From a virus (taxonomy: Duplodnaviria; Caudoviricetes): a DNA stretch of 64,000 nt. The first letter of the stretch is position 1. Every line of letters begins with the position of its first letter. Location of the stretch: positions 90,908 to 154,907 of the IMG/VR virus record IMGVR_UViG_3300033067_002581; one strand, 5' to 3'. The notes beneath the pieces were generated by a model. That model worked only from the letters and a program-made list of their open reading frames with translations. It searched no databases and was not told the origin of the DNA. Position numbers and translations under genes: made by a program. Shown here piece after piece: positions 15,363 through 61,592 of the stretch.

Positions 15363-15721
15363 ATGCAGACACCGATAGTTTTTAACTCGATCTCCGTCAT
15401 GATAGAGAACATGACGTCTATCTCGTGAGCGATCTCCGCCGCAGCCTCAGCCTTTTTGATCACCTTGCGATTTATACGGCGCAGTGGTTTGATCTCAACG
15501 AGCTCACGAGTGCCATCTTTCCACGCGATCAAAAAATCAGGCGTGTATCTTCTGATCTTTGACGAGCTCTCAGACGCGACATAATGAACGTCAAGTGGCT
15601 CATACCTCCACGTCTCAACGTCGTCATTCGCATCTAACCAACGCATCATCGCTAGCTCCCATCCGCTACGATACCGCACGCGCGACCCATCTCTAGAGTC
15701 ATAAAAGCCCTTCTTACTCAT
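15359..15721 (-). CDS. TnsA-like PD-(D/E)XK endonuclease / T4 gp4 head-completion nuclease-like
   Basis: YRSGWELAMM..LD, W.YEP, RRYTPDF, LVEIKP, IMTE motifs. Confidence 0.85.
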   Translation of the reverse strand: MSKKGFYDSRDGSRVRYRSGWELAMMRWLDANDDVETWRYEPLDVHYVASESSSKIRRYTPDFLIAWKDGTRELVEIKPLRRINRKVIKKAEAAAEIAHEIDVMFSIMTEIELKTIGVCI

Positions 15722-18087
15722 CAGTAATCTATCCTGTGTCTGATCGTGACGGTCGAACCTGCGCGCTTAAGCGCAGGCTGCGCTAGCTTGGCTCTCATCA
15801 CAACGTTCATCTTAGAGTCAAGCCACACCGTGCCAGCGATATAGACGTTCGATTCAGCTGGCTCAGAGCTGTTCTGCGATGGTAACAACTCTTGATACGA
15901 TGAGTTGCTAGATGAGTTCACGGCTTGCGCTGGTGCAAACGCATCATACTTGGCCACGTATATCGGGCGCTCTCCTTGCCATGATGCATAAAACTGTTTC
16001 TGACCGAAGCGCCAGAGGTGTGGGCTCTTTATGACAGCGAGGCCTTCATCGTAGAAGACATGACCACACGATGACCACGAAGCGTGTGACCCAGTGGAAT
16101 CGCACCTAAACAGGTTTCCGTTTCCATCATCACGAAGCGTGACTGAAAAGGCACCATCAGAGCCAGAGATATTCGCATCTGACAAGCACAGCGTACCAGG
16201 TGAGATTCGACTGCCATACAACACTCTGCTGAACTCAAAAAACGTCAGCCTCTGCGAATCACCGTCACGTAAGCGCTGGTACAGCGTAAGAGGGGGAGCC
16301 GTCAGGTCGCCGTTCACAAAACCATTCAACGCAGAACCGGTGATCGCGTTTGGCGACTCTGGGCTTGGCCCTATGGCGCCAGCGATCACGTCTTTTGTGC
16401 TGCCCGAAGCCTCCTGCGCAAAATCAAAGATGAGCGATGCGCTGGAGATGAGATCTGTCAGCCTGATCTGCGACTGCGCAGCTCGCCCAGACTCATCCTG
16501 AAACATGGACTGATCCATCTCAGATAGCATCGAATATGATGGCACGAATGAGCCGTCATCACATGGCATGATCAGAAGGTTCGCAAACCTGAGATACTGC
16601 GTGTCCAAAAATTGATCGGCTGTCTTCACAACAGTGGTGTCGTTGATCGCTGATGCCGTCAGTCGATACAAGCGTGGATGTCTCTTTTTGGCGATATCAT
16701 AAACAAAGTTCTGAAGGTTTATGACATGACCGTCAACACCAAGCGCTAGCTCTGCGTTAAGCGGTGACGATGTTGTGCCATCAAACTCCTGAAACGGCGT
16801 CAGCAGCACACCTCCGTGGTCACCAGCTGTCGCTCTAAACGGTGACTCTCTAGTGAAGAATGGCGCCAAGTAAAGGTAGCAATCTGCTGGCACGACACTG
16901 TGCCCATACGTCGCAGATGATGTTATTTCTGCGTCTGTCAGCCACCTTTCATAATACGCCAGGTCGTGTACCTCTCCGTTCATCGGGTGTGAGAACCTGC
17001 TTGACGCAGGTTCTTCAATGCCTCCCACGTCGCTTGACAGGTTAACCAACCCATCTCTTGTAGACGTGTCTGTTGAGAAAAAATACGCCTGACTTGATGA
17101 ACCGCTGTTTGAGCCCTCGTAGTAGTTTCCGACACACATGACGTATGGCTGTGGAGTCGCGCTCGATGGCGCTACAGATGAGGACGCGAGCGCAAACGAA
17201 AAGCTACCAGATCCGACAATCGCAGAGCCGGTCATCTTTGACGCCGCGGCGCCCCATCGTATAATAACTCGATTCCAGACATCTCTGGGAAGAGAATTGT
17301 CCTGTGACAGGTACGTCAGCTGAGGTAGTGAAGACAGATTCACATCTGAAGGCCTGATATTCGCGCTGCTGCTAAGCTGCAACATCAACCTATATGCACC
17401 TATCGACCCGTTCTCATCTCTCAACGAGCCAGAGACTATTGACACAGCGAAGCATGAAGACAGGTGCAGCAACGTCGCGGCACGAAAGGAATTCGACACC
17501 AGTCGTCTGGGTTTTACGCGAAAATCTATCGTGAACGCGCCAGTCGGAACAAGATCACCGCGCATCAGCGCGCCGTTATCCCTATCAATGGACGGGTACA
17601 TGATGACTGACGACGTGGAGACGTTAGATGAAGAGAAAAAATTCAAACAGTGATAATTCGTGTACGACAGCCCGGCGTTGCTGTTCCATGGACGAGCAAA
17701 CGAGCCACATAGCTTCACAGCGTCCTTAAGACCAGTGTTCCTGCTATACTGCGCAGATGGCGTGAATCGTCTGACATTAACGATCGCGGAGTTTTTTCTT
17801 GATATAGCTAACGCCTCAGCACCAGTGACATACGCTCTCACGGCAGAGAGGATGTCACTGTTACCCGATCTCTTAGCGTTAGTCAGAGCTGCTGTCAGCT
17901 GCTCGGGCGTCGTATCATTATGTGCATCAGAGAAGCTAACGTTTGTCTCGCGTTCACGACGACTCCTCCTAGCAAACGCGCTGACTGAACCGCTTACTCC
18001 GAGTGATGACGAATAGAAGCACGCTGCTGGACGTGTAATCATCGCATAGCAGCTGACGTTACCATTTCGCGCGCTGAAGATAGACAC
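15721..18087 (-). CDS. Large Ser-rich virion protein with LamG/ConA-like domain
   Basis: FTIDFRVKP, WNRVIIRW, MNGEVHDLAYYERWLTDAEI LamG-like pattern; C-terminal domain shared with 18313-19533. Confidence 0.6.
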   Translation of the reverse strand: MSIFSARNGNVSCYAMITRPAACFYSSSLGVSGSVSAFARRSRRERETNVSFSDAHNDTTPEQLTAALTNAKRSGNSDILSAVRAYVTGAEALAISRKNSAIVNVRRFTPSAQYSRNTGLKDAVKLCGSFARPWNSNAGLSYTNYHCLNFFSSSNVSTSSVIMYPSIDRDNGALMRGDLVPTGAFTIDFRVKPRRLVSNSFRAATLLHLSSCFAVSIVSGSLRDENGSIGAYRLMLQLSSSANIRPSDVNLSSLPQLTYLSQDNSLPRDVWNRVIIRWGAAASKMTGSAIVGSGSFSFALASSSVAPSSATPQPYVMCVGNYYEGSNSGSSSQAYFFSTDTSTRDGLVNLSSDVGGIEEPASSRFSHPMNGEVHDLAYYERWLTDAEITSSATYGHSVVPADCYLYLAPFFTRESPFRATAGDHGGVLLTPFQEFDGTTSSPLNAELALGVDGHVINLQNFVYDIAKKRHPRLYRLTASAINDTTVVKTADQFLDTQYLRFANLLIMPCDDGSFVPSYSMLSEMDQSMFQDESGRAAQSQIRLTDLISSASLIFDFAQEASGSTKDVIAGAIGPSPESPNAITGSALNGFVNGDLTAPPLTLYQRLRDGDSQRLTFFEFSRVLYGSRISPGTLCLSDANISGSDGAFSVTLRDDGNGNLFRCDSTGSHASWSSCGHVFYDEGLAVIKSPHLWRFGQKQFYASWQGERPIYVAKYDAFAPAQAVNSSSNSSYQELLPSQNSSEPAESNVYIAGTVWLDSKMNVVMRAKLAQPALKRAGSTVTIRHRIDY

Positions 18088-18094: not shown

Positions 18095-18313
18095 TCACAC
18101 TATAGAGATGACGCGAGCCTCTATGTCATTCGGTATCAACGCCACTGGCACTTTAAGCGTTGACTGCAAGAACAGACCCAGACGCTGCAGTTCCTCGACG
18201 CACATTGTTTTATCATGTGACAGGACAAGCGCCTGACCGTCGCTGACGATTATCTCTGATAATTTACATCTCATCAGAGAATGCAGAATTTTCTTTGCTA
18301 CTCGAGCCTTCAT
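18095..18313 (-). CDS. Small hypothetical protein
   Basis: 72 aa ORF filling the gap, 1-bp overlap with upstream stop. Confidence 0.45.
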   Translation of the reverse strand: MKARVAKKILHSLMRCKLSEIIVSDGQALVLSHDKTMCVEELQRLGLFLQSTLKVPVALIPNDIEARVISIV

Positions 18314-19533
18314 CAGAAGTCAAGTCTGAGTCGTAGCGTCGTCTGTCTCTCGTTATTCTTCTCGATGGGTCGCGACAGCTTACCGACGGCGAGCATTGTC
18401 CCGTTCGCATCATACAGGCCAACACCAGTGATGTATGTAAACGACCTCTGGTTATCCTCCTGACCCGGGTCAATGACAACTATCCTGCTAGCCGAGTCCT
18501 TGTATGATGGATTTGACGAGTAGTTGAACTCATCAGCTCCAGCGTTGCAGAAGACAAGCATCGAGCTGATGTTAGTAGTGTTCTGAAACGTAGCAGCTGT
18601 GAGCGATCCAGATTGGAACCTCGTGCCGCATATGTGATCTATCACGTTATCGATCGAACCAGAGACAAGAAGATCTGGTGAGAATGCTGCTTTTTTAGCT
18701 GTCTCTGTACCGGCGGCGCCGATGACAGTCCTGCCTGTCGAGGTCATAGCATCGATCGTCCCACTGATAAACTGCGACGCGGACGTGATCTTTAACAGGT
18801 CAAGAACAACAACACCGCTATCATAAAACATCAGTCCAACGCTTCTAGCTGTGTTTGAAGCGTCTACTATCTGACCAAACTGGCCGCCTGGAGCGACCAG
18901 CTTGTTTCCCGACGAACCAACATCAGTATAGAATGACGAACCCGAGACCGATGTCACATCGATGTTCGAACCAGTCAGGTATGACGTCGCTGCTTCGGGC
19001 GTAGCGATCAGCGACGCCGTCTGATAGAAACGTAGGACGAACGTCTCTCTCTTTATCTGATCACGTGAAAAGAGTCTCTTAAATGAGATGAAAAGCGCCG
19101 CGTTGATAGCATCACCTGCGACTGCGCTACCCGGAGGTGACACAAACTGCTGGTCCTGCGCGCCAAGCAACGTCTGAGCGAACTGTCTGTATATGTCCAT
19201 CTTCTCGCGCATCATAAGCGATGATGACGGAAACAGCTCTTTTCCGACTGAATCCTGTCCGACTTTAGACGATGACACGATCGAGCTGTTTGGATACAGC
19301 CCAAACGTGATATCAAAGATAGGATTAGACGCCTGCAGCGTGAAATCCTGATCATAGACCGTCTGAAACAGTGAAGACGTGACGCCAGGTCCCACACCGC
19401 CAGTCACAAAATGCTGATACTTCTTACGACTGACAGAGCCACTGACGTCCTCTTGTAGGACGTCAATCAGCTGGTTCAGCGAGCTTCTCGTGCTCTTAAA
19501 ATCTGTTGGTGACAGTTCTTTATAGATCGCCAT
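18313..19533 (-). CDS. Virion structural protein (tail/baseplate-associated)
   Basis: Ser/Thr/Gly-rich; C-terminal EFNYSSNPSY...TYITGVGLYD..G.MLAVGKLSRP domain. Confidence 0.65.
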   Translation of the reverse strand: MAIYKELSPTDFKSTRSSLNQLIDVLQEDVSGSVSRKKYQHFVTGGVGPGVTSSLFQTVYDQDFTLQASNPIFDITFGLYPNSSIVSSSKVGQDSVGKELFPSSSLMMREKMDIYRQFAQTLLGAQDQQFVSPPGSAVAGDAINAALFISFKRLFSRDQIKRETFVLRFYQTASLIATPEAATSYLTGSNIDVTSVSGSSFYTDVGSSGNKLVAPGGQFGQIVDASNTARSVGLMFYDSGVVVLDLLKITSASQFISGTIDAMTSTGRTVIGAAGTETAKKAAFSPDLLVSGSIDNVIDHICGTRFQSGSLTAATFQNTTNISSMLVFCNAGADEFNYSSNPSYKDSASRIVVIDPGQEDNQRSFTYITGVGLYDANGTMLAVGKLSRPIEKNNERQTTLRLRLDF

Positions 19534-31551: not shown

Positions 31552-31626
31552 AGAATCAATTTTGCGATTCTGCATCGTTTGTTCTGTGATAGAATCACAA
31601 ACGCACGCTTAATTCAAGGACACCAA

Positions 31627-33504
31627 ATGCAATCTCCTTTTGAGTCAGCTTCAGTGCCCAAGGCTACAGACGTCATCATCGTTAACGATTTCTTTTGTGA
31701 AGAAATGCTGGGTGGAGCGGAGCTGACAACCGAAGCGATCATAGATGAGCTACGATCGCGAGATCTTAAGATAGCGAAGATCAGATCAGAAACGCTCACA
31801 CCCCAGCTAGTGTATGACAATCGCGGTCCGCTCTGGATCATCTGCAATTTCACCAGAGCTGACGTCAGGGCTCTATCAAGCATCGTCAGACTCGTTCGAT
31901 ACATCGTCATAGAGTATGACTTCAAGTTTTGCTCAGCGAGATCACCTGAAAAACACAAGGCTGAGACTGGAAAAGCCTGCCAGTGTGGTTTAGCCGAACA
32001 TGGCAAGTTTGTCTCTGAGTTGTTCTCGTCGGCGCAGGCAGTCATCTGGATGTCAGAGAGACAGCGCGACATCACTCTCGCTGCGTGTCAAAACATGAGA
32101 CCCAGAAAGCAGATGGTCACATCAAGCGTGTTCACTGATGCGACGCTTGACAACCTAGCGTCGCTAAGGGTGAAAGAGCGTTCAGCAAAGTGGATCGTGT
32201 TGCGATCCGATTCGTGGATCAAGGGAACGAAGCAATCGCTAGCAGTTGCGGTGTCAAAGGGGCTCGACTATGAACTTGTGGGACATGTCTCGTATGATGA
32301 GATGCTTCAGAAGCTTGCGAGCTCGTCGGGTATCGTCTATCACCCACCGGGCGGCGATACGTGCCCTCGGTTAATCATCGAGGCAGCGATCCTCGGCATT
32401 CAGATCGACATCAATGATAACGTCCTTCATGTGCATGAGCCATGGTCTGCGTTGCGTGGCGATGAGCTCATCATCGCGTTAAAGAAGAAAAGAGCCGCCG
32501 CCGCTGATTTCATCTGTAACGAATTAAAAGTTATGATCAGCGGGTACGTGACGACGCTTGACTGCCTATCAAAGGGTTATCCGATCATTGATTGCATCAG
32601 GTCAATGATCGCGTTCTGCAATGAAGTGATCGTGTTTGACGGTGGTTCGACTGATAACACGCTGCATCTGATAAGCGATTCATTCGATCCGAGCAAGGTG
32701 AAGGTGTTCACTCACGTCATCGATATGACCGATCCAGGCTTCGCTCTTGAGGATGGTGAGCAGAAAGCGAGAGCGAGAGCGAAATGCATGGGTGATTTTT
32801 GTTGGCAGCAGGATGCTGACGAGATCGTCGATGAACGTGACGCACTTGACATACAATTGATGGCAGCCAGGATGCCTGCAGACATCAACGTCGTGTGTCT
32901 CCCGGTCATCGAGTTCTGGGGGTCGCTTGATAAGGTTCGCGTCGATGTTACGCCATGGAAATGGCGTCTCAGCAGGAATGACAAGAATATCACACACGGT
33001 GTGCCAAGAATGCTACGATCTCACACACTAGACGGGCGCAGGATCGCATTGCATGGCACTGATGGCTGCGACATGATTTTTAAAGACTCTGGTGAACCAG
33101 TCGATAGCGCGACATTCATGACTCACGACGCTGACAGAGATAGGCAGCTAGCTCTGAATGGCGATACGTCAGCGCTTGAGAGATATGATGCATGGTTTGA
33201 CACAGTGACTACGATGCTTCCAAGCGTCTTTCACGTCAGCTGGCTTGACATCAATCGCAAGCTACATCTCTATAAAGCGTATTGGACTGCGCATTGGGCG
33301 TCACTGTACGGTGAAACACCAAAAAACAATTTCTTTGATAAGGATTGGGATGATGTCTCAGACGCTGAGATTCTCGCTCTATCACAAGATCTAAAAAAGA
33401 TCGGAGGTTGGATCTGGCACAGACCTTGGTCTGGTGCCGTTACACCACACATCAGGTGTCATCGACCTATGCCGAGATCGATAACGATCGGAGTGGCGTC
33501 ATGA
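31627..33504 (+). CDS. Two-domain glycosyltransferase (GT4/GT-B-like + GT2/GT-A)
   Basis: GGAE N-terminal loop and DTCPRLIIEA; second domain IVFDGGSTDNT and QQDADE (DxD); AAGGA before ATG 31627. Confidence 0.85.
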   Translation: MQSPFESASVPKATDVIIVNDFFCEEMLGGAELTTEAIIDELRSRDLKIAKIRSETLTPQLVYDNRGPLWIICNFTRADVRALSSIVRLVRYIVIEYDFKFCSARSPEKHKAETGKACQCGLAEHGKFVSELFSSAQAVIWMSERQRDITLAACQNMRPRKQMVTSSVFTDATLDNLASLRVKERSAKWIVLRSDSWIKGTKQSLAVAVSKGLDYELVGHVSYDEMLQKLASSSGIVYHPPGGDTCPRLIIEAAILGIQIDINDNVLHVHEPWSALRGDELIIALKKKRAAAADFICNELKVMISGYVTTLDCLSKGYPIIDCIRSMIAFCNEVIVFDGGSTDNTLHLISDSFDPSKVKVFTHVIDMTDPGFALEDGEQKARARAKCMGDFCWQQDADEIVDERDALDIQLMAARMPADINVVCLPVIEFWGSLDKVRVDVTPWKWRLSRNDKNITHGVPRMLRSHTLDGRRIALHGTDGCDMIFKDSGEPVDSATFMTHDADRDRQLALNGDTSALERYDAWFDTVTTMLPSVFHVSWLDINRKLHLYKAYWTAHWASLYGETPKNNFFDKDWDDVSDAEILALSQDLKKIGGWIWHRPWSGAVTPHIRCHRPMPRSITIGVAS

Positions 33505-37043: not shown

Positions 37044-37060
37044 TAGCGCAGGAGCATGAG

Positions 37061-42843: not shown

Positions 42844-42846
42844 AAC

Positions 42847-44727: not shown

Positions 44728-44733
44728 TAGTTA
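44728..44733 (+). promoter_or_regulatory. Candidate late promoter TAnTTA (TAGTTA)
   Basis: In the 89-bp gap before GT4 gene 44771. Confidence 0.35.
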
Positions 44734-44770
44734 TCTTCTTGCATCACCAATTCCACGACAGAGAGAGCAC

Positions 44771-45994
44771 TTGCGTAAAATAAAAGTACTGTTTTTGAGC
44801 GATCACCCAATGTCTCCAACTGGAGTTGGGACTCAGGCGAGGTGGCTGATCGACGGTCTTGTGAAGACGGGACGCTACACGTTCAGGTGTTTTGGTGGAG
44901 CTGTCAAGCATGAGCGATATGATGTCATGCGCGTCAGCGACGATCTCGTTATACGCCCAGTTGACGGGTTCGGTGATCAGAACCTGCTGAGGCAGACGCT
45001 CTCTGCTGAGAAACCGGACGTCATGTTGCTCTTTACAGATCCGAGATTTTTCATATGGATCTGGGAGATGTCAGATGAGGTGCGATCAGTCTGCCCGATA
45101 GCGTATAACCATCTATGGGACTGCGAACCATATCCAGCGTTTAACGATCCTTTCTATCAGGACACTGACCTGATAAACTGTATCAACAAACCCACTTTCG
45201 ACATGCTTAGCGCTCGATTCCCAGATAAGACAAACTTCATCCCTCACGCAGTGCCAGAGGAGCTGTTCTTTCCAGAATCAGATGATCTACGTAAGCGATT
45301 CAGATCACAGCTGCTTGGCGTCGCTCGAGACGATCATTTTGTTGCTCTGTGGATCGCGAGAAACGCTCGTAGAAAACGCCCGAATGATATGTTGGCCGCC
45401 TGGGCGCTTTTTATGAAGGACAGAGCTCCTAAGAGCGCTACGCTGATCATGCATACGAACCCATCAGACTCTGAGGGTCCGAACCTGATCGCGACAGCGT
45501 CAATGCTTGGCATCGAAAATTCTGTAAAATTCTCTGCAGAGATAGTCGGATTTGAACAGATGCGAGCTTTATACGCAGCGTCAGATGTCGTCATAAACAC
45601 GAGTATGAACGAGGGATTTGGCGTCCCAACTCTAGAAGCGATGTATTGTGGCAAGCCGATCATCGCCCCAATGACAGGTGGTCTGACGCACCAGCTAAAA
45701 GACGCTGACGGTGAACCGACAGGTGTTGGCTTAGAGCCTGACGTCAGATCGCTAGTCGGTGGACAGCTTGTCCCGTACATTTATGAGGATTTGGTCAAGA
45801 CAGAGAGGTTTGCTGACGCTCTATGTCAAGTTGAGAGCTGGGGGCCTGTGAGACGCAAAGAGGTCGGCGCACGAGCGCGGAGATACGCAAAAACTGAATT
45901 CTCAATGAAGCGCTTGATTACGTCATGGGATGAGTCGCTCGTCAAGCTAGCTAACTCATGGTCACCGTCTCCAAGAATCGCGGTCATCAGATGA
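44771..45994 (+). CDS. GT4 glycosyltransferase
   Basis: PTGVGTQ, IPHAV, RNARRKR, NEGFGVPTLEAMYCGKPII. Confidence 0.92.
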   Translation: MRKIKVLFLSDHPMSPTGVGTQARWLIDGLVKTGRYTFRCFGGAVKHERYDVMRVSDDLVIRPVDGFGDQNLLRQTLSAEKPDVMLLFTDPRFFIWIWEMSDEVRSVCPIAYNHLWDCEPYPAFNDPFYQDTDLINCINKPTFDMLSARFPDKTNFIPHAVPEELFFPESDDLRKRFRSQLLGVARDDHFVALWIARNARRKRPNDMLAAWALFMKDRAPKSATLIMHTNPSDSEGPNLIATASMLGIENSVKFSAEIVGFEQMRALYAASDVVINTSMNEGFGVPTLEAMYCGKPIIAPMTGGLTHQLKDADGEPTGVGLEPDVRSLVGGQLVPYIYEDLVKTERFADALCQVESWGPVRRKEVGARARRYAKTEFSMKRLITSWDESLVKLANSWSPSPRIAVIR

Positions 45995-47139
45995 AAAAAA
46001 TCCTTCTAAGAGCTCCCGTCTTCACGCAGTCAGGATATGGCGTTCACGCCCGCCAGCTTGCTAAATGGCTCTTACGACGTTTTGGTAAAGAATCATTGAG
46101 GATCCAACCCATGTCATGGGGGATGACCCCGTGGTATCTCTCTGGACCTGATGATGACATAGACACCCTTCGTGATCTTATTGAGACAACTCCTACAAAA
46201 TACGACGTTAGCTTTCAGCTACAACTGCCTACAGAGTGGGATAGAAATCTATCAGATGTCGTTGTTGGAGTGACAGCCGGCGTCGAAACTGACAGAGCGC
46301 ACCGCTCATGGGGTGAGGCGTGTAACTCTGTCGCGCGCGTCATTGTGCCATCAGCTCACGCAGCTAAATCGCTTATCGCGGCGAGTGCAAACGAATCGCT
46401 GATCAGGGTCGTTCCAGAGTCATTTACGAAAGTGAGCGTTGGCAAGCAAACTCCGATAAAGCTAGGACTCAGCGATGACGCTTTCGGCGTGCTGATCGTG
46501 GGTCAGCTGACACACGGAGCGCCAGAGGCTGATAGAAAGAACATCTTTAATACGATTAAGTGGACTAGAGAGTTTTTATCAGCTGACAAAAACGCAGCCA
46601 TAGTCTTAAAGACAAACTGTGGAAGAAACACAGCGATCGATTTCACCGTCATAAAAAACACGTTCACAAAATTCATCTCTGAGACGTGTCCAACAGGCCC
46701 ACCAGTGCACATCCTGCACGGTAATATCTCAGACACAGAGATGACCTCACTGTATCAGAGCAAGAGCATCAAGTGCTTGGTGTCGCTCACGCGTGGTGAA
46801 GGGTTTGGCCTACCACTGCTTGAAGCTGCTGCGTCAGCGCTCCCTGTCATCGCGACTGACTGGTCTGCTCATACAGAATATCTCGGAAGTCGCTGGACTC
46901 GAGTTTCTAAGACGTTAGTCGAGATCCCAAAGTCGCGCGTCGACAACACCATTTTCGTGCCAGGCGCCAAGTGGGCAGAGGCTGACAAAGCCAGTTATGG
47001 TCAACGCCTGCTTAAGACGCGAGACAGCTATCGCGTTCCAAAAGAGTGGGCGATCGAGCTGCAGCGCAGCATTACGCAGACGCACTCTCAGGACGCAATA
47101 GAGCGAGCGTGGGATGCTGCGACGCGTGACATACTATGA
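45991..47139 (+). CDS. GT4 glycosyltransferase
   Basis: SGYGVHAR, DRKN, TRGEGFGLPLLEAAASALPVIATDWSAH. Confidence 0.92.
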   Translation: MKKILLRAPVFTQSGYGVHARQLAKWLLRRFGKESLRIQPMSWGMTPWYLSGPDDDIDTLRDLIETTPTKYDVSFQLQLPTEWDRNLSDVVVGVTAGVETDRAHRSWGEACNSVARVIVPSAHAAKSLIAASANESLIRVVPESFTKVSVGKQTPIKLGLSDDAFGVLIVGQLTHGAPEADRKNIFNTIKWTREFLSADKNAAIVLKTNCGRNTAIDFTVIKNTFTKFISETCPTGPPVHILHGNISDTEMTSLYQSKSIKCLVSLTRGEGFGLPLLEAAASALPVIATDWSAHTEYLGSRWTRVSKTLVEIPKSRVDNTIFVPGAKWAEADKASYGQRLLKTRDSYRVPKEWAIELQRSITQTHSQDAIERAWDAATRDIL

Positions 47140-52275: not shown

Positions 52276-53763
52276 GTGATCAGGCACATAACATGCTCAG
52301 CTGACGCATACATCTCAACGAGAGTGATCGATGGTGCGACCGTGATGACAGGAAACACGGGACAGGCCGGCTCGCTAGACTTATACAAGCTGTATGGGCA
52401 GTCGCGCACGATCGTGTCAGGTTCCAGTCAGCCGAACGTAGAGCTGACGCGATTGCTGACGTCATTTGATGCATCATGGCTCTTGACGGCCTCGGCCGCG
52501 GGCAAGATCGATGTGAATCATGAATCGTTCAAGGCTACGCTAGTCATGCGTGACGCCTACGGTGGGCAGCCTTCACCGGATAACCTCGTGATAAGCGTCG
52601 CGCCGCTGTCGCGATCATTCACGGAAGGATATGGTAGGGACATAGTCTTCCTCAGCGACAATGATGCAGCGAACTGGCTGTCATCATCAGCTGGCATGGC
52701 GTGGCACGTTACGGGATGCGGTCTGATGGGCTTCGCACCAGCGAGCTGTGACTACTACACAGGGTCAGTCGATGGTTCACTCGTGTTCAACCAGACGCTA
52801 CGTGACGGCACTAGCGACCTATGTGTCGACATCACTCGAGCAGTTCGAGGAGTCTTAGTCGGAACATTACCAGAGCTGTCGTTTCGAGTGTCTCTGTCAG
52901 ACGCTGAGGAGGCTGATAACCTCAGCTATTTTGTAAAGAGATTCTCATCAAGGCACGCGTATGATGCGTCAAAGCGACCGCACGTTAGGATCGAATGGAA
53001 CTCGGCGACAACAGACGATACGCTGCTCGCGATCACAGACGCACCAGTTACATTATCAACAGCGTTTTATCACGGCGGAACTTTAACGAATGTGTCATCT
53101 GGTTCAGTCGTGATATCTGGGTCATCATGCATGCTGCTAACGCTATACAGCGGGTCATGGTCATCATCATACGCTGCGTCTCAGGTGTCTGGTGCCTCTG
53201 GTCGTGTGGTCGGGACATATGGCGCTACTGTGACTTTGTCATCAGACGATCCTATCATCGCGGCGCACCTTGTATCATCTGGCTCGTTCATCACGTCACT
53301 TCGGTGGTCATCACTTGGAGGTAGGACGCTTAGAGACACTGAGACAGTCACGTTCAAAACGGCTGATGATGGTGAGTCTCTGTCGATTGGCAGGCTGTCA
53401 GTGTCGTTCTTGAACTTGCGATCGAGATATCGCGATTGTGATCTGATCAGCGTGAAGCTTACGACGTTTGATCCTGTCAAAGTGTCAGCCTCGTTCGTTA
53501 AGAGACCCATAAAGGCTCCAAACACGCCTGTATCGAACTTGCATGTGGGTGTCATAGATGCGCTGACGAGTCGCGTCGTGGTGCGTCCACAGGCGTCAAC
53601 GCTCTCGACGCTTACGTCACTAACATCCACCGGTCACGAGTGGGAGATCCACGCGTCATGCATGGCGCCAGGAGGCAGTTACAGGCTGCAGTCATACGTC
53701 GTTGACGGCGACAACATCACACCAATAGGCGATCCGTCTGCGCCTTTCGCGGTTGACGCATGA
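52276..53763 (+). CDS. Ser/Gly-rich baseplate/virion protein
   Basis: DAYI...TRLLTSFD, FSSR...P...W pattern; many SGS motifs. Confidence 0.55.
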   Translation: MIRHITCSADAYISTRVIDGATVMTGNTGQAGSLDLYKLYGQSRTIVSGSSQPNVELTRLLTSFDASWLLTASAAGKIDVNHESFKATLVMRDAYGGQPSPDNLVISVAPLSRSFTEGYGRDIVFLSDNDAANWLSSSAGMAWHVTGCGLMGFAPASCDYYTGSVDGSLVFNQTLRDGTSDLCVDITRAVRGVLVGTLPELSFRVSLSDAEEADNLSYFVKRFSSRHAYDASKRPHVRIEWNSATTDDTLLAITDAPVTLSTAFYHGGTLTNVSSGSVVISGSSCMLLTLYSGSWSSSYAASQVSGASGRVVGTYGATVTLSSDDPIIAAHLVSSGSFITSLRWSSLGGRTLRDTETVTFKTADDGESLSIGRLSVSFLNLRSRYRDCDLISVKLTTFDPVKVSASFVKRPIKAPNTPVSNLHVGVIDALTSRVVVRPQASTLSTLTSLTSTGHEWEIHASCMAPGGSYRLQSYVVDGDNITPIGDPSAPFAVDA

Positions 53764-56700
53764 TCAATTCACGGAATCAAGACAGGTCTCGAGCGGCATA
53801 CGTCGATCCGAATCACGCGAGTGAGACGTTTTATTATGACGCTGACTCGTCAGGCGTCAGCTCGACGCAGCAGTTTCGCGTCGACTGGTCTGATTTTAAG
53901 AATCACGTCTTTTTCGGGTCAGCCACGGCTAACGTCAACGTCGCATTTGATAAGGCTATCAACGGGTATCCATATGATGGCACAAGAGAACAGGTCAAAA
54001 CGTTCGTATCAAAGCTGACTGGCTTCGAGCGTTGGATGCTATCAAGCATGCCTTCATGGGTCGGTCACATAAACCTGTCATCATCATACGCTGTCGTACA
54101 GGATTCATCTGGGATGGAGTTTGGCGGTAACGCTAGTGACGCCGAGACAGGTGCGCCGAAACTTTCACCGTCTACGGGATCGCTTAGCATAGAGTTCCTA
54201 TTGAACCCAGCGTCGCAGGCGAATCAGATAGTCGCTACGTCATCGGGATCCTCGTGCAGGTGGACTGTGTTTATCAGCGGCGCAGCCAGCCCTGCATCAT
54301 GCTCAGTTGGGTTCGCTGTCACGACTCAGAACGCGAACATGAGCACTGCGTGTCAGATCTCTCTCGGAACGTTCTCAAGCGTCTGTTGCGTATATGACAC
54401 GACTGACACGCTGACTCGGTTGCGTATCATCACGAATGGTACGCTCGCAGCGGTCTCTAGCGGATCGCTACTATCGTCTCTTGACACAACAGGTCAGTTA
54501 CTGATAGGATCTGGCTCGGCGTTTGCAGCCGCGACCTACGGTCAGATCACACCATCGCGAACGCTAACTGGTTCGATCGATGAGTTTAGACTGTGGAGAT
54601 ACGCGAGAGACGCAAGCTCCGTGAGAGCTGACATGACTCGCAACATCTTTGCTCAAGACGGTCTTGTCCTGTATTACAGGTTCAATGAGCCACCACCGCC
54701 ACTCATCAGCGGGTCCACGTCGTCTAGCATCGATTCGATACTTCTTGACAGCTCTGGAAACGCGCTGCATGGAACCGTCGTAAACTTCCTATCAAGCTGC
54801 AGAGCGACATCGTCGCAGGATAGCGGCACCATTGTTGGTGAACGCATAGCGTCATCACCCGTCCTGTTCCCGGAATATCCAGATTCGGTTTCATTCAGAG
54901 AGGCGTTGCTCTCGAGCGCATCGCTATACGACTCTCAGAACCCAAACAACATCCTGCGTCTGATACCAAGGCACTTTCTTGAAGAGGCTAGGGCGTACGA
55001 TGGCGCTTCTGATGCTGGCTCGCTTCACTTCGATTACTCGGGAGGCAGCGTCCCAGGCTCCAGCGTTCTTGGCTCGACGCAGCTGATGGTCTCGCTCATG
55101 TACACTATGGGCAGGTTCTTTGACGAACTGAAGATCGGCGTCGACCAGTTTTCTAGTGTGAATGATGCGTTTTATGATGAACCTGACACCGTGCCGGATT
55201 CGTTCATCTCTGACGCTATCTCGAAGCGTGGTTTTGATTCAATACCAGCGCTGTTCTCAGACGCGACTCTATCACAGTATGTCAGCGGAGATGACATCAG
55301 TTCAACAGCGCAGACGCCTGCTAGAGACGTCAGAAACACGCTCCTTCGCAGGTTTCTATCAAACGCTCCAGATATCATCGCGTCAAAAGGTACGATACAC
55401 AGCGTTGAGGCTTTGCTGCGAACGCTAGGCGTGAACCCAGGAGCGTCAGTCAGACTGAAAGAGCGATCGTCATATGGATCCGGTGAGCTTGAATCATCAT
55501 ATACGACTGACTCAGCAGTTGCTGGCATGATCGCCGTTCAGGACTCTGTCGTCTTGAGATCACTGCCACTTAGCGGTTCTCGCGTAGAGACTGGGTGGCC
55601 AGATCCTCAGGGATCGATGATCAAGAAATCAGCGTTCCCACCACACGGTATCTCATCATCACCATCTGATGGGTTGTATACGTCCGGTTCTTGGACGGCT
55701 GGCGCCACTGTGTGCTGGCCTTCTGGTTCTCTGCTGCTCAGCCAGAGTCTCTTTCGGCTGATGACTACCGGCTCTGACGGTCGGGCGTGCCTTGTGAACG
55801 TTATAGCGACAAGAGACGTATCAACTGATCATAGTGGTGCTGTGACGCTGTATGCATCATCAAACATAACCAGCGCGTCAGCGATCGGAAGCGTTTCAAT
55901 CTCTGGTGTGTCATTATTTGACGGTGCTACGAAACGAGTCGAAGTCTCATACGTTCGTCCAGATCGCGCGACAGCATCACATGTCTCATCATCGTACTCG
56001 CTTCGAGTGATCGCTGGCGAGTCACGCATGACGACACAGTCATTCTTCTTAGACGATCAGGTGTCAGCGTACCGCGTTGTCACATCATCATATAACGCAA
56101 GCGGCGCGTTTATCGAGATCGGAAACTCACCACTACCTGTGTTACCTGCGTTTGTTAACGCTGGACCACGCGAGGCGATCGTCACCAGCGCATCATTTTA
56201 CGTAGGTCATATCCAGTTTTGGTCAAAAGCGTCAGAGATGTCTGAGACGATCGCCAGAGCGACCAACTTCACCTCGTTCGCATCTACCGTTCCAGCGACA
56301 AATAGCGGAGCTCCAACGGCGGCGACTGGGTCGTATGAAAGGCTGAGGTTAGACGTCGCGTCAATGATGAATCAGAGTGAGAGGATCGCTGACTCGTCTG
56401 GATCGCTGCAACTGCTTGATGCTTCTGTTAGCGGACGCCACGTATATGTGACGGGTTTGACGTCTGGATCGGACGCGGGCAGAGCGATCGTGACCGACCG
56501 TGAGCGCGTCAGCACGTCATATGATGAATCTGTATCTACACAAAAGATCACGATCGCGTCTAGCGCATCACGAACACGCACCGGACTGCCTCGAGACACT
56601 CGATTCTCGATCGAGCTATCACTTGTTGAGGCACTCAGTCAGGCGATGCTCGATATGCTATCGAGCCCACAGGCGCTAGCTGATGCTATTGGAGGCGTTC

Positions 56701-57017
56701 CGGAGCAGATGTCTCCAGATTACCCGAAGCTTGACGCCTTAAGTGATGCATTTTTTACAAGGTTAAGCGCAAAGCTAGACTTCAGATCATACACGATAAC
56801 GTACAGGTGGTTAGAGAGTCTTGTCGGTTCGCTAGCTCGTCAGCTTATACCACGCCACGCTGTTTTCGGTGGAGCGACGTTTGTGATGGAGCCTCATGCT
56901 TTTGAGCGTGGTAAGGTCGAATATCGCGGTTCAGATCGCTTTCTAAGCATCGCGCCAGCGGATATCACGCGAGATTCACTATATCTTCAGCAGATCGTTG
57001 GAAGTGTTTCAAGATGA
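53760..57017 (+). CDS. Large baseplate protein (gp7/P2 gpI-like KGT motif) with LamG-like domains
   Basis: LTGSIDEFRLWRYAR, LVLYYRFNE, DSSGNALHG LamG motifs; SKGTIHSVEALLRTLG. Confidence 0.7.
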   Translation: MINSRNQDRSRAAYVDPNHASETFYYDADSSGVSSTQQFRVDWSDFKNHVFFGSATANVNVAFDKAINGYPYDGTREQVKTFVSKLTGFERWMLSSMPSWVGHINLSSSYAVVQDSSGMEFGGNASDAETGAPKLSPSTGSLSIEFLLNPASQANQIVATSSGSSCRWTVFISGAASPASCSVGFAVTTQNANMSTACQISLGTFSSVCCVYDTTDTLTRLRIITNGTLAAVSSGSLLSSLDTTGQLLIGSGSAFAAATYGQITPSRTLTGSIDEFRLWRYARDASSVRADMTRNIFAQDGLVLYYRFNEPPPPLISGSTSSSIDSILLDSSGNALHGTVVNFLSSCRATSSQDSGTIVGERIASSPVLFPEYPDSVSFREALLSSASLYDSQNPNNILRLIPRHFLEEARAYDGASDAGSLHFDYSGGSVPGSSVLGSTQLMVSLMYTMGRFFDELKIGVDQFSSVNDAFYDEPDTVPDSFISDAISKRGFDSIPALFSDATLSQYVSGDDISSTAQTPARDVRNTLLRRFLSNAPDIIASKGTIHSVEALLRTLGVNPGASVRLKERSSYGSGELESSYTTDSAVAGMIAVQDSVVLRSLPLSGSRVETGWPDPQGSMIKKSAFPPHGISSSPSDGLYTSGSWTAGATVCWPSGSLLLSQSLFRLMTTGSDGRACLVNVIATRDVSTDHSGAVTLYASSNITSASAIGSVSISGVSLFDGATKRVEVSYVRPDRATASHVSSSYSLRVIAGESRMTTQSFFLDDQVSAYRVVTSSYNASGAFIEIGNSPLPVLPAFVNAGPREAIVTSASFYVGHIQFWSKASEMSETIARATNFTSFASTVPATNSGAPTAATGSYERLRLDVASMMNQSERIADSSGSLQLLDASVSGRHVYVTGLTSGSDAGRAIVTDRERVSTSYDESVSTQKITIASSASRTRTGLPRDTRFSIELSLVEALSQAMLDMLSSPQALADAIGGVPEQMSPDYPKLDALSDAFFTRLSAKLDFRSYTITYRWLESLVGSLARQLIPRHAVFGGATFVMEPHAFERGKVEYRGSDRFLSIAPADITRDSLYLQQIVGSVSR

Positions 57018-57839: not shown

Positions 57840-60800
57840 TTGGCTTCACAAGTCTATGAAAATTATCTGTTAGACAGAGACGAGCTGTCGGTGAGAGCCG
57901 GTTTGCTACCTGTGCCACGTAGCATGATGACGACGATCATCGGCGGGTTTGTGACTGGCAGCTCTCTTAGCGCCTCTGTGTTGATCGGCCTGGGCATAGA
58001 ATTCAGTGGTGAGAACGGCATAAAATACACTCGCGCCGCTGTGTCACACGGTGGAGCTATCGTATTGATCGATCCCGCGGCCCCGACAACGGTGACAGCA
58101 ACGTCCGCGTTCGATGCAGTGTGTTCGAGCCTGTCTAATAACGCATCGATACGCAGCACCTTTCTCAGCTCTAGCCTTCTGCTGTGTCCATGGTGGGACC
58201 CGTCGCAGAGAACCGTTGCCTCTGATGTTTATCAGCTGACGAGATCGTTTAGCGCGACAACGTTTCGCCTGCTCAAGTATGGCGCCATCAGGCCAGAAGA
58301 CGTAGTACCTCCTGGCCGTCTAGACATAGACGGTGGCGTGACATATACAAGCGTGTTTAATTCTGACAGAGGAAAATGCTCTGTGATTCGGTGGTGCACG
58401 CAGGAGTCTCAGTCAGAATCATCACGCGTCATGCGATATGAGGCCGCGCTATATGAGAACGGTCTGATAGAGTTCAGGTATTTGACTCCCGCTCAGACGC
58501 AGCCGAGCGGCGCGCTGCCGCAGACGGGTTCCGCTGTAGTTGGTGCATTCTTTCCGAGCGGCACGCTCAGGTTCCGCGACATGTCTCCTATCGTCACTGA
58601 CAGGTCAGCGTATGAGCTTGGCGGGTTTACATACACGAGCTCATACGCTGACAGGGGAGCTCCTTATTGCGTATCAAACTCCGGACACGCAGGATGGCCT
58701 GGCGCGATAAGATCGGCTACGTATTCATTTCGACCTAGTCAAGCGCTGCGACAGGTCCTTCCACGAAAGGTCGTCAAACACATATCAGACCAAGCGTTCT
58801 CGCCGCTATACTCTGACAGGCGATCGGTTCCTGCCACGGTCGGGATGCTTGACGCGCCAGTAGCGAGTTCATACCTTGATTTTGATGGTGATGGTGCTGA
58901 TCGCAGCGATCTGTTCAGGATACAAGCACACTGCATAAGAAGCAGATCGCTTAGCGACATAGGGTTTTTCGCGCGCCCAACTGCGCCTATCGCTCCGTTT
59001 TGTGATAACATCATTGACGATCCACAGCTGACGCTTGCGTCAGCTTCATCAGTTAATGTCAACGATCCAAATAGCACGACAAGATTAGGCTCTCGACACT
59101 CGCTTGATTATTCGATCAGGATCAGAAGGCAGTCAAAATTCATCCCAGGCGCGTCTTCTGGGATGATATTTGACGCTAGCACAGGTTGCTTCGTTCTTGT
59201 CGGCGTCGATCGCGCTCGATTACCGCCTGATGAGGCGCAACGCGCGGCGGAAGATGGTAACGGTTTTAACGCAGTCGGTCATTTCATGGCATCTGGTGCC
59301 TACCAGATCAGCTCACAATCGCAGTCTACGCTCTCACCTGGTCTGTATTCCTCAAACGGAGCGTCGCAAGCTGATATGCTGTCAGCGTATTATAGCGAGT
59401 CAATCACGCTGTCAGACAGTTATCTGACGTTCAACGGTCTGACGAAGTATGAACCGTTTCGTCCAGCTCTCCGGAGGCCGTTCGTCGTAGAGGCGGTTGA
59501 GATAGAGTTACCCGTTAAAGCGAACAACGCGTGGTTTCAGGACATGACGACAGTCAAGGTCAACACCCCTTCTGCGTCATTCTCAGGATGGAACCTGGGT
59601 GGACCTGGGCTCACTGTCGCGGTGCTGGTCGATCGCGGCTCGACGTTAAGGAGGTTCAGAGACGTCCTAGCGACTGGTTCGATAACTCACATATCGGACG
59701 CAACAACGATCGGCGCGTCAGTCACATCACTGCTGCCAACAAAAGCGTTAGTGGCGCCACTTGGGTTTAGGACATGCGGTGGCACGCCCGCGGGTGTCAT
59801 CAACGCTACGTCTGGCCCGTTCACTGGCAGTGTGAAGCTTTTCATGCCTGCGGCGTCCGCGGTCGGATCGTTCATGGCGCTGACAGGGTCAACGACCACG
59901 ACGACGTTCCTACAGACGCTGCCTGTCAATGATTCATTGTCGCAGCTGACGCAATCATTCGGTTGGTTAAACGCGATCCCAGTGCATCTCACGCCATTTG
60001 GAAGATCACATGATGGTGCGTCGATCTCGGCCCGATCTGTGCTGATGCGTGAGTCAGCAATTGACACAGCTATCAAAAACAGCTTCGTTCTCACAGGATC
60101 CGCGATCGCCGCGCTTTCATCATCTCTAGCAAGTTACGCGACAGTCACATACGTTGGATGCGCAAACAACGTGGCGTCAACTCCATCACCGTACGTCCTT
60201 CTTCCTGGTGACGGTCTGAGGATACAGGTGGCGAGATCAAGAGCCGCGATCACGGGTAGCCTAGCTGTGAACATAACGGCTGATATGGACGCTGAGACAA
60301 AACCTGTGTTTGGTTTTGCCGAGGGAGATATAAAGCTCAGATTGATTGGCAGGTACCTCGTCAGCGGAAAGCTGTCAGAGGTGCATGACGCTGAATCTAT
60401 GGAAGAGATCATAGGTGCAGAGCCAGTCATCGACCAGCTCGACTTTTTTGGACGGCAGGAACTGTTTGGCACCATCTACGACGGCTATGTCACGGGCTCA
60501 TACGTCAACAGGTCAGCTGGATCGGTGACGCTTGGCGCAGAGCGCGGCAGGGTGTTTAGCATAGCGAACGCATCAGCGTCTCAGCAGTTTGACACGTCGC
60601 TGTACTCAGTGGCACTCACAAAATCAAGCTGGCTCGCTGGTTTCAATGGCATCAGTTACGCGACGTGTGAGGGTGAGCGCTACTATGATTCGATGCTACC
60701 TCCGATAGATCAGATCACCAGGCTGAATAGCGGAGCGGTGTTCTATCAGCCTAGCGGGTTCTATATCGTGAATAGGCCGACGGCTGTCATATTCTATGAC

Positions 60801-61592
60801 ATACCGACGCAGCACACAGCATCGATAGCTCCTTACGCTGACAATGCATGGTCAAGGGCGTATCCATTCGAGCCAAGGTACGCCTCGCTGCAGCGCAGGA
60901 CTGACATAACAAAGTATTTCAACTGCGATCTGAAACTGATCAACGGAGCGCTTGGCGACATCCAGTCGCTGACGAATGATGGTGTCGCCGATAACCTGAT
61001 CGTCATCCGGATGCAGTATAAGAACGAGCGATCGACGGCCGGTGTCCCAGTCGATCCGAACCTCTACTATCTCTATGCTCTTGACGCGATCGGCAACAAC
61101 CCACCAAAGGTGATCACAGCTCCTGTCACGAACACGTTTCAGACGAGGTCTGACCTGATAAAGACGCTCTACGGGATCGGGGCTGTCAATAACATCGTGA
61201 TCACCGGATCGTCTGCACCGATGGGAAGCACGTGCGCTCCTGATTACGCAGGATTCAGCTATGACCCACCAAGCTCAAAGCAGTATGGGTTTGGAGCGAA
61301 GCCGATCATACGCGGATGGAAATACGGCCTGGCGTCTGGGTTGCGTTTCACGTCACGAGCGGTGTGGCGCAGGGACAGGTTTGGGCAGCTCAGAGACATG
61401 CTCGAGCAGCGCGTGAACACGAAGTTTGCTTCTGATATTGACGGCTCTATTGGCGAAGCACCAGTGAGAGTCACGTTTATCGATCCTCTCAGTGGTAGGA
61501 TCAGGAGCCCAGAGCTGACGCAGTCATCCAACCTCAGCTATGAGGCAACTTCTTCGCTCCCTTACTTCGACGGTTTGGCGCGAAATCGGTGA
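57840..61592 (+). CDS. Very large Ser/Gly/Thr-rich tail/adhesin-like protein
   Basis: 1250 aa; CPWWD / VIRW / YEAALYENGLIEFRY nidogen-like pattern; last gene of the tail operon. Confidence 0.55.
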   Translation: MASQVYENYLLDRDELSVRAGLLPVPRSMMTTIIGGFVTGSSLSASVLIGLGIEFSGENGIKYTRAAVSHGGAIVLIDPAAPTTVTATSAFDAVCSSLSNNASIRSTFLSSSLLLCPWWDPSQRTVASDVYQLTRSFSATTFRLLKYGAIRPEDVVPPGRLDIDGGVTYTSVFNSDRGKCSVIRWCTQESQSESSRVMRYEAALYENGLIEFRYLTPAQTQPSGALPQTGSAVVGAFFPSGTLRFRDMSPIVTDRSAYELGGFTYTSSYADRGAPYCVSNSGHAGWPGAIRSATYSFRPSQALRQVLPRKVVKHISDQAFSPLYSDRRSVPATVGMLDAPVASSYLDFDGDGADRSDLFRIQAHCIRSRSLSDIGFFARPTAPIAPFCDNIIDDPQLTLASASSVNVNDPNSTTRLGSRHSLDYSIRIRRQSKFIPGASSGMIFDASTGCFVLVGVDRARLPPDEAQRAAEDGNGFNAVGHFMASGAYQISSQSQSTLSPGLYSSNGASQADMLSAYYSESITLSDSYLTFNGLTKYEPFRPALRRPFVVEAVEIELPVKANNAWFQDMTTVKVNTPSASFSGWNLGGPGLTVAVLVDRGSTLRRFRDVLATGSITHISDATTIGASVTSLLPTKALVAPLGFRTCGGTPAGVINATSGPFTGSVKLFMPAASAVGSFMALTGSTTTTTFLQTLPVNDSLSQLTQSFGWLNAIPVHLTPFGRSHDGASISARSVLMRESAIDTAIKNSFVLTGSAIAALSSSLASYATVTYVGCANNVASTPSPYVLLPGDGLRIQVARSRAAITGSLAVNITADMDAETKPVFGFAEGDIKLRLIGRYLVSGKLSEVHDAESMEEIIGAEPVIDQLDFFGRQELFGTIYDGYVTGSYVNRSAGSVTLGAERGRVFSIANASASQQFDTSLYSVALTKSSWLAGFNGISYATCEGERYYDSMLPPIDQITRLNSGAVFYQPSGFYIVNRPTAVIFYDIPTQHTASIAPYADNAWSRAYPFEPRYASLQRRTDITKYFNCDLKLINGALGDIQSLTNDGVADNLIVIRMQYKNERSTAGVPVDPNLYYLYALDAIGNNPPKVITAPVTNTFQTRSDLIKTLYGIGAVNNIVITGSSAPMGSTCAPDYAGFSYDPPSSKQYGFGAKPIIRGWKYGLASGLRFTSRAVWRRDRFGQLRDMLEQRVNTKFASDIDGSIGEAPVRVTFIDPLSGRIRSPELTQSSNLSYEATSSLPYFDGLARNR

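What the first reader, a model, noticed from the sequence alone, without database searches (positions are those of the whole stretch)
15721..61592. Recurrent (S/T)-G-S motif in virion proteins: candidate sequon for the phage glycosyltransferases
Seen: SGS/TGS recurs across unrelated structural proteins, e.g. VSGSV, IVSGSL, ASGST, ISGSD (15721 gene); VSGSV, LTGSN, VSGSS, QSGSL (18313); IVSGSS, YTGSV, SSGSV, YSGSW (52276); STGSL, SSGSL, LTGSI, ISGST (53760); VTGSS, QTGSA, FTGSV, LTGSA (57840). It also occurs in the capsid insertion (QSGSL, HTGSH, LSGSG, ITGSN). By eye it is scarce in the terminase, primase and GT enzymes. Known: Ser-Gly is an O-glycosylation acceptor motif in proteoglycans. Inference: a shared tripeptide on surface-exposed virion proteins could be the acceptor for the adjacent island, making a sequon-plus-enzyme system.
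Basis: partly seen in the sequence, partly recalled or inferred. Interest (0 to 1): 0.8.

Follow-up and report, generated by a model that had tools for sequence, protein, structure and literature searches.

The report
Ser/Thr-Gly-Ser tag on phage virion proteins
The outer particle proteins of this uncultured large phage carry the tripeptide Ser/Thr-Gly-Ser about four to five times more often than chance. The same excess occurs in distant cultured relatives that share one pair of sugar-transferase genes. It may therefore mark where a phage-made sugar coat attaches, but a purely structural reason is nearly as likely and no chemistry has been done.

Summary
Five large virion ORFs in the window hold 42 [ST]GS against 9.2 expected from their own composition. 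Packaging, replication and sugar-island ORFs hold 3 against 6.5. Genome-wide, SGS is the second most over-represented tripeptide. The signal depends on residue order: in the 1250-aa protein, 9 of 10 T-G are followed by S and 0 of 13 S-G are.

It is not a DNA repeat and not paralogy. It is also not general to tail proteins: T4 has 6 in 5000 aa and S-PM2 shows no order preference.

Flavobacterium phage immuto and Microcystis phage Mel-JY01 show the same excess. They share with this phage only a syntenic nuclease plus GT4 pair at the island's 3' end. That pair was present in all 27 informative relatives, so co-occurrence cannot be separated from common descent.

In an AlphaFold model the motifs sit at hairpin turns and helix caps. 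In three fibre paralogs outside the window the motif ends a known-type structural repeat.

Verdict: a candidate O-glycosylation sequon (about 0.4), with an inherited structural turn motif as close rival (about 0.37). This scan noted the same pattern before on at least 13 other genomes. Those notes gave me the GT-pair lead.

The parts
15721..18087 (-). 788-aa virion protein with 9 [ST]GS
   Evidence: 9 vs 1.60 expected. 9 of 14 [ST]-G-x are followed by S, counted by eye on the A3 row. 4-5 sites are conserved at 40% identity and the rest are lineage-specific. Its C-terminal domain is shared with the 406-aa protein.
18313..19533 (-). 406-aa conserved tail-type protein with 5 [ST]GS
   Evidence: 5 vs 0.91 expected. 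Three sites are conserved in relatives. Two are new in this phage, one by SAS to SGS and one in an indel. The C-terminal domain is found in RM378, Mel-JY01 and immuto.
52276..53763 (+). 495-aa chain of beta-sandwich domains downstream of the baseplate wedge, with 6 [ST]GS
   Evidence: 6 vs 1.37 expected. The AF2 model has pLDDT 83 and places the motifs at hairpin turns, a helix cap, a loop and a short strand. Its folds are Ig/FN3/CBM-like. In 28 homologues, six to eight alignment columns each carry the motif in half to three-quarters of members.
53760..57017 (+). 1085-aa protein with a LamG_3 domain and 13 [ST]GS
   Evidence: 13 vs 3.06 expected. LamG_3 spans residues 125-288. Codons at 10 sites vary, so this is not a DNA repeat.
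57840..61592 (+). 1250-aa fibre-like protein with 9 TGS and no SGS
   Evidence: 9 vs 2.29 expected. T-G is followed by S in 9 of 10 cases and S-G in 0 of 13, counted by eye on the translation.
1..1323 (-). gp23-type major capsid protein (runs off the window start), with 5 [ST]GS
   Evidence: Pfam Gp23 and phrog_138 match. Residues 125-325 are an insertion relative to T4 gp23. QSGSL is invariant in 16 of 16 relatives.
44771..45994 (+). GT4 glycosyltransferase 1 of the conserved pair (candidate initiating enzyme)
   Evidence: Pfam Glycos_transf_1, E 5e-16. It is syntenic in immuto, Mel-JY01 and RM378. It is present at 51-57% identity in 27 of 32 related contigs.
45958..47139 (+). GT4 glycosyltransferase 2 of the pair
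   Evidence: Pfam Glycos_transf_1, E 7e-10. Adjacent homologues occur in immuto and Mel-JY01.
43854..44681 (+). PD-(D/E)XK nuclease upstream of the pair
   Evidence: Pfam PDDEXK_1. The same gene lies just upstream of the pair in immuto, separated by a small ORF. In Mel-JY01 it lies one gene further up, separated by GuaB.
31579..43857 (+). Variable part of the sugar island
   Evidence: Contents: a 641-aa GT2, an epimerase, 2 GT2, 3 GT4-like, GDP-mannose 4,6-dehydratase, a carbamoyltransferase, UDP-glucose dehydrogenase and 2 unknown ORFs. The 641-aa GT2 has no match in any cultured phage.

Best explanation
The motif hydrophobic-[ST]-G-S on outer virion proteins is read by a soluble phage enzyme and O-glycosylated late in infection.

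Inferred mechanism: the conserved GT4 pair (44771-47139) puts the first sugar on a Ser or Thr of the motif. The motif is displayed at tight turns of folded beta-sandwich domains. The lineage-specific upstream genes then supply nucleotide sugars and extend and carbamoylate the glycan, giving the particle a sugar coat.

Shown here: the ordered enrichment, its restriction to outer virion proteins, its recurrence in distant relatives that carry the pair, and its absence in T4 and S-PM2.

Inferred only: that any sugar is attached, which residue accepts it, and which enzyme starts the chain.
For: - Enrichment: 42 vs 9.2 in five proteins with no detectable sequence similarity to one another in the three pairs compared.
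- Order dependence: SGS is the second-ranked tripeptide genome-wide while the SG and GS dipeptides are unremarkable. In the 1250-aa protein, T-G-S occurs in 9 of 10 T-G and S-G-S in 0 of 13 S-G.
- Negative classes: Ser-rich internal-type proteins hold 1 vs 5.15. Packaging, replication and island ORFs hold 3 vs 6.5.
- Codons vary at the motif sites.
- Relatives keep 4-6 motifs per roughly 500 aa, with gains and losses of individual sites.
- Phages without the pair: T4 has 6 in 5000 aa. S-PM2 has 8 in 1911 aa, with SGT as common as SGS.
- Phages with the pair: immuto has 8 in 1496 aa and Mel-JY01 has 17 in 2290 aa, against about 1.2 and 2.3 expected.
- These phages share the syntenic nuclease plus GT4 pair, each followed by different sugar genes.
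- GT4 number 1 is more conserved (51-57% identity) than the neighbouring structural protein (33-38%).
- No flippase, oligosaccharyltransferase or lipid-carrier transferase family was detected in the island.
Against: - No chemistry exists.
- All motif-rich phages belong to one superclade with homologous tail modules, and every informative member has the pair (27 of 27). Co-occurrence therefore counts as one evolutionary event.
- In the AF2 model the motifs are at two-residue hairpin turns, a helix C-cap and a loop, and at a helix N-cap in the capsid insertion. All of these have structural rationales.
- Conservation differs by site. G is nearly invariant at one site and the third Ser at another.
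- The fibre-paralog motifs end a 25-aa structural repeat that is also seen as AGT or AGS in other proteins.
- One TGS is part of the canonical LamG motif.
- The pair sits next to a nuclease in the three cultured lineages examined and in this phage, which could point to a DNA-related role.
- GT4 number 1-like genes in actinophages phiPsal1 and TJE1 come without the motif.
- Expectations for the other phages are rough estimates made by eye.
Confidence: 0.4

Rival explanations
1. The motif is an inherited structural turn. [ST]-G-S is a favoured strand-turn-strand or helix-cap solution in the beta-sandwich-rich, Ser-rich virion proteins of this superclade. It was kept by descent and by convergent loop design. 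The sugar island does something else, such as DNA or host-surface glycosylation.
For: - Motifs lie at hairpin turns and helix caps.
- Many sites are fixed alignment columns across proteins of 30-56% identity.
- The fibre repeat GRVTSGS is a family-level structural unit.
- The LamG-type G-x-I-D-E context is present (and the sequence).
- All positive phages are related.
- The GT pair is linked to a nuclease.
Against: - Unrelated folds (capsid insertion, neck, sheath, baseplate, fibres) share the motif, yet T4 and S-PM2 counterparts do not.
- The three-residue coupling is strong while the dipeptides are at expectation.
- N-G and D-G, the usual tight-turn pairs, are not what is enriched.
- The middle residue alternates among G, A and S at some columns, which is not expected where a positive phi angle is required.
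- Lineage-specific gains alone exceed the chance expectation.
Confidence: 0.37
2. The motif is read by a different trans-acting factor. This could be another modification enzyme (kinase, acyl- or methyl-transferase) or an assembly chaperone such as the GroEL-apical-like protein at 30180-31229.
For: An order-dependent, virion-restricted motif implies a reader.
Against: No such candidate gene was found to be shared with immuto and Mel-JY01 in the searches run. The only shared non-structural genes detected were the GT4 pair and the nuclease.
Confidence: 0.12
3. The excess is a composition or low-complexity artefact. Ser- and Gly-rich stretches inflate SGS without any selection on the tripeptide.
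For: GGG is the top tripeptide, and the fibre paralogs have Gly-rich tails containing some SGS.
Against: - Expectations already use each protein's own composition.
- Most contexts are not low-complexity.
- SSG, GSS and SSS are not among the top 25 tripeptides.
- The 9 of 10 T-G-S against 0 of 13 S-G-S split cannot come from composition.
Confidence: 0.04

Closest known systems
Virion glycosylation of mycobacteriophages by phage-encoded glycosyltransferases (Freeman et al. 2023, Cell Host Microbe; read only as cited in PMC12619734, since the paper itself is not held)
   Same: Phage-encoded soluble glycosyltransferases, with genes among the virion genes, decorate capsid and tail proteins.
   Different: - There the glycans are reported at the C-termini of capsid and tail-tube subunits, and I know of no tripeptide sequon.
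- Here the candidate sites are dispersed turn motifs on many proteins of a T4-related myovirus.
- GT4 number 1 finds no mycobacteriophage even at E 1e-3.
- The actinophages it does hit (phiPsal1, TJE1) lack the motif.
Bacterial autotransporter heptosyltransferases (AAH/TibC) acting on AIDA-I and TibA (from my own knowledge, not checked here)
   Same: A cytoplasmic O-glycosyltransferase is described as recognising a short strand-loop-strand element that bears Ser next to Gly, rather than a long linear sequon.
   Different: Those enzymes are GT9-type heptosyltransferases acting on beta-helix repeats. No GT9 family was detected in the island.
Bacteroidetes general O-glycosylation sequon D-(S/T)-(A/I/L/V/M/T) (from my own knowledge)
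   Same: A three-residue O-glycosylation sequon is spread over many unrelated surface proteins.
   Different: That system is periplasmic, uses a lipid-linked glycan and a flippase, and has a different motif. No such machinery was detected here.
Proteoglycan xylosylation at Ser-Gly
   Same: A Ser next to Gly serves as acceptor.
   Different: The eukaryotic motif has acidic flanks and a GT14 enzyme. Here the flanks are V, I, L or T and only GT2 and GT4 families were found.

Membership tests
Phage virion glycosylation system (mycobacteriophage type) | Phage-encoded glycosyltransferases located with late or virion genes | tested here: met
   The island lies between two virion gene blocks. GT2 and GT4 domains were detected.
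Phage virion glycosylation system (mycobacteriophage type) | Glycan demonstrated on virion proteins | not testable with these tools
   This needs mass spectrometry or glycan staining of virions.
Phage virion glycosylation system (mycobacteriophage type) | Sequence relationship of the transferases to the characterised ones | tested here: not met
   A tblastn search with GT4 number 1 at E 1e-3 hits 18 phage records, none of them a mycobacteriophage.
Protein glycosylation sequon (a motif read by a transferase) | Enrichment beyond composition, dependent on residue order | tested here: met
Protein glycosylation sequon (a motif read by a transferase) | Motif excess appears and disappears with the enzyme across independent lineages | tested here: inconclusive
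   Present with the pair in this clade, immuto and Mel-JY01. Absent in T4 and S-PM2, which lack the pair. All positives are one superclade, and 27 of 27 informative relatives keep the pair.
Protein glycosylation sequon (a motif read by a transferase) | Sites are solvent-exposed on the assembled particle | tested here: inconclusive
   Motifs are at turns and caps of a monomer model. Exposure in the virion was not computed.
Lipid-carrier dependent (Wzx/Wzy or PglL-type) glycosylation | Flippase, initiating phosphoglycosyl transferase and oligosaccharyltransferase present | tested here: not met
   None were detected by Pfam or NCBIfam among the island ORFs. Transmembrane segments were not examined.

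The most novel reading that the evidence does not exclude
Hydrophobic-[ST]-G-S is the acceptor sequon of a cytoplasmic O-glycosylation system that is a core feature of an abundant superclade of large aquatic phages (at least 575 relatives in IMG/VR). A strictly conserved GT4 pair starts the glycan. Lineage-specific islands build different glycans on it, so these virions wear a variable sugar coat.
Probability: 0.35. Interest if true: 0.85.

Novelty: new variant of a known kind. Interest (0 to 1): 0.65.

Why it matters
Phage virion glycosylation has so far been shown only in mycobacteriophages, and I know of no defined sequon there.

If this tripeptide is a sequon, glycosylated virion proteins could be predicted from sequence across hundreds of environmental phages. 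It would also explain why large aquatic phages carry big sugar islands with no membrane machinery.

The idea is testable in two cultured phages: Flavobacterium phage vB_FspM_immuto and Microcystis phage Mel-JY01.

If it is instead a structural turn motif, it remains an unusual lineage-wide sequence signature worth mapping on a cryo-EM structure.

Tried and rejected
**Explanations ruled out**
- A DNA-level repeat. Codons at ten sites differ.
- Paralogy among the window proteins. BLASTP gave E above 0.2 for the three pairs tested.
- A generic property of tail and fibre proteins, rejected by the T4 and S-PM2 counts.

**Tests that could not discriminate**
- Co-occurrence with the whole island. All sufficiently long relatives have GT2 and GT4 genes.
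- A search for a lineage that lost the pair. There was none among 32 contigs, and the five negatives are cut less than 5 kb upstream of the expected position.

**Leads that went nowhere**
- The 641-aa GT2 as the shared enzyme. It has no match in cultured phages, and its GmaR hit is weak (E 0.018).
- GT4 number 1-like genes in actinophages as an independent test. phiPsal1 and TJE1 lack the motif.
- The fibre repeat searched against cultured phages gave no match, probably because of low-complexity masking.
- Direct IMG/VR searches with the 1085-aa protein found nothing.
- The capsid AF2 model was too poor outside residues 181-340 (pLDDT 44).
- Literature searches found no paper describing such a motif.

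**Not done**
- Shuffle statistics and codon-usage tests, because the script machine was lost.
Full report
**What the window is.** The window is the last 64 kb of a 154,907-bp single-contig virus record.
- It encodes a gp23-type major capsid protein, portal, large terminase, SbcCD-type nuclease, primase, a baseplate wedge protein and an RNA-ligase/fibre-attachment protein.
- Upstream in the genome lie two sheath paralogs, a neck adaptor and three fibre paralogs.
- By capsid similarity it has 208 relatives in IMG/VR at 63-84% identity. One is a complete 369-kb genome with terminal repeats, so the clade is one of jumbo phages and this record is probably a fragment.
- No cultured phage matches at the DNA level.

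- All quoted peptides are present.
The capsid protein holds 5 vs 1.06.
- Outside the window, the fibre paralogs hold 37 vs 11.0, the sheaths 9 vs 3.0 and the neck protein 5 vs 0.42.
- Sixteen packaging, replication and head-interior ORFs plus the fifteen island ORFs hold 3 vs 6.5.
- Four large internal-type proteins that are also Ser-rich hold 1 vs 5.15.
- Over all ORFs, SGS is the second most over-represented tripeptide after GGG, and TGS is also in the top twenty. No dipeptide containing G and S is in the top fifteen.
- The residues before the motif are mostly V, I, L or T.

**The signal depends on residue order.** These counts were made by eye on printed translations.
- In the 1250-aa protein, ten T-G dipeptides are followed by S nine times. 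Thirteen S-G dipeptides are never followed by S.
- In the 788-aa protein, 9 of 14 [ST]-G are followed by S. In the 495-aa protein the figure is 6 of 12.
- Composition or Ser-rich loops cannot produce such coupling.
- Ten motif sites in 53760-57017 use four Gly codons and both Ser codon families at the first position, so there is no DNA repeat.
- The window proteins show no pairwise sequence similarity in the three pairs compared.

**Structure.**
- An AlphaFold2 model of the 495-aa protein built on 28 homologues is confident (pLDDT 83, pTM 0.84).
- It resembles chains of Ig, FN3 and carbohydrate-binding beta-sandwiches.
- Motif positions in the model:
  - S48-G49 and G293-S294 are the two loop residues of tight hairpins.
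  - G276-S277 is another turn.
  - S281-S283 is a loop before a strand.
  - S335-G336-S337 is a helix C-cap followed by a strand start.
  - T162-S164 lies in a short strand.
- In the usable part of the capsid model, T215-G216 is a loop and S217 caps a helix.
- In the three fibre paralogs the motif is the end of a roughly 25-aa repeat, G-t-Y-x-x-V-t-v-D-x-y-G-R-V-t-S-G-S. Homologues from other sources share the repeat with AGT or AGS variants. A Gly_rich_2 domain follows it.
- So the motif sits where a structural reason is available. The same places are also what a turn-recognising enzyme would see.

**Relatives.**
- In the capsid protein, QSGSL is invariant in 16 of 16 relatives. A second site is [ST]-G-[ST]-N throughout.
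- In the 406-, 788- and 495-aa families about half the sites are conserved. The others are gained or lost, and each relative still carries 4-6 motifs per roughly 500 aa.
- At some columns the middle residue alternates among G, A and S. At one column G is nearly invariant, and at another the third Ser is.

**Controls.** Expectations here are rough.

| Phage | GT4 pair | Proteins examined | [ST]GS observed / aa | Expected |
|---|---|---|---|---|
| T4 | no | gp34, gp37, gp10, gp12, gp18, gp23, Hoc | 6 / about 5000 | about 4.7 |
| S-PM2 | no hit | fibre part and sheath | 8 / 1911 | about 3.5 |
| immuto | yes | 2 tail proteins | 8 / 1496 | about 1.2 |
| Mel-JY01 | yes | 2 tail proteins | 17 / 2290 | about 2.3 |
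| RM378 | GT4 number 1 plus an unassigned ORF | 2 proteins | 3 / 1077 | about 1.0 |

- In S-PM2 most motifs lie in GSGSG runs, and SGT is as common as SGS.
- In Mel-JY01, 11 of 16 [ST]-G in one protein are followed by S.
- RM378 is weak.

**Link to the sugar genes.**
- The island (31579-47139) holds a 641-aa GT2, an epimerase/dehydratase, two GT2 and three GT4-like genes. It also holds GDP-mannose 4,6-dehydratase, a carbamoyltransferase, UDP-glucose dehydrogenase and a PD-(D/E)XK nuclease, and it ends in a pair of GT4 genes.
- Earlier notes of this scan on other genomes reported that the excess travels with a conserved pair of transferase genes. I tested that lead.
- The pair at 44771-47139 has adjacent homologues in immuto and Mel-JY01. 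In both, a PD-(D/E)XK nuclease lies upstream and different sugar genes follow.
- RM378 has a 5'-3' exonuclease, a GT4 and an unassigned 425-aa ORF at the same place.
- The 641-aa GT2 has no match in any cultured phage. Its best solved match, the flagellin O-GlcNAc transferase GmaR, is not significant (E 0.018).
- Among 32 IMG/VR contigs carrying the 495-aa homologue, 27 have GT4 number 1 at 51-57% identity. The five without it end less than 5 kb upstream of where it would lie.
- The pair is therefore a core gene set of the superclade, and no natural loss is available. The co-occurrence is real but counts as one event.
- GT4 number 1-like genes in the actinophages phiPsal1 (next to the capsid gene, with a methyltransferase and a GT2) and TJE1 come without the motif.

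**Reading.**
- The motif is selected as a tripeptide, in many unrelated outer virion proteins, in a lineage-specific way. That pattern favours a trans-acting reader.
- The only shared candidate found is the GT4 pair. Soluble transferases without lipid-carrier machinery fit direct protein glycosylation.
- Against this, the structural placement, the heterogeneous site constraints, the nuclease linkage of the pair and the complete phylogenetic confounding keep the structural explanation nearly as likely.
- My estimates are about 0.40 for the sequon, 0.37 for inherited structure, 0.12 for another reader and 0.04 for artefact.
- No paper in the held library describes such a motif. The scan itself has noted the pattern on at least 13 other genomes.

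Noticed in passing
window 43854-47139; L121:8009-11928; L126:5376-10303; L124:3213-6894: A nuclease (PD-(D/E)XK, or a 5'-3' exonuclease in RM378) followed by two GT4 genes is syntenic in this phage, Flavobacterium phage immuto, Microcystis phage Mel-JY01 and probably Rhodothermus phage RM378. Each is followed by different sugar genes. Both GT4 genes give weak hits to the Pfam 'GT4-conflict' family.
   Followed up: partly
window 18313-19533 and 15721-18087: The 406-aa and 788-aa proteins share a C-terminal domain ending in L-A-V-A-K-L-S-R-P-x-x-K ... R-L-D-F. This domain is conserved as far as RM378, Mel-JY01 and immuto. The two are probably tail-tube or sheath-related paralogs.
   Followed up: partly
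genome 82913-87226 (L005:2913-7226): Three tandem fibre paralogs (54% identical) combine the GRVTSGS repeat with a Gly_rich_2 domain. They account for GGG being the most over-represented tripeptide in the genome.
   Followed up: partly
window 1-1323 and genome 90338-92230: The capsid protein carries a roughly 200-aa insertion where T4 gp23 has about 60 residues. AlphaFold models only this insertion with confidence.
   Followed up: partly
window 54174-55775: At all ten motif sites read, the third-position Ser uses a TCN codon and never AGY. Three sites contain GGATC. The sample is too small, and codon usage could not be computed.
   Followed up: no
L126:7442-8933 (Mel-JY01 83441-84932): The GT4 number 1 homologue of Mel-JY01 is annotated as two adjacent CDS, and tblastn joins it from two pieces. 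This may be a frameshift or a sequencing or annotation split.
   Followed up: no
window 31579-33504: The 641-aa GT2 has a roughly 330-aa N-terminal region with no family match. It is conserved in length (641-672 aa) across the clade but absent from cultured phages.
   Followed up: partly
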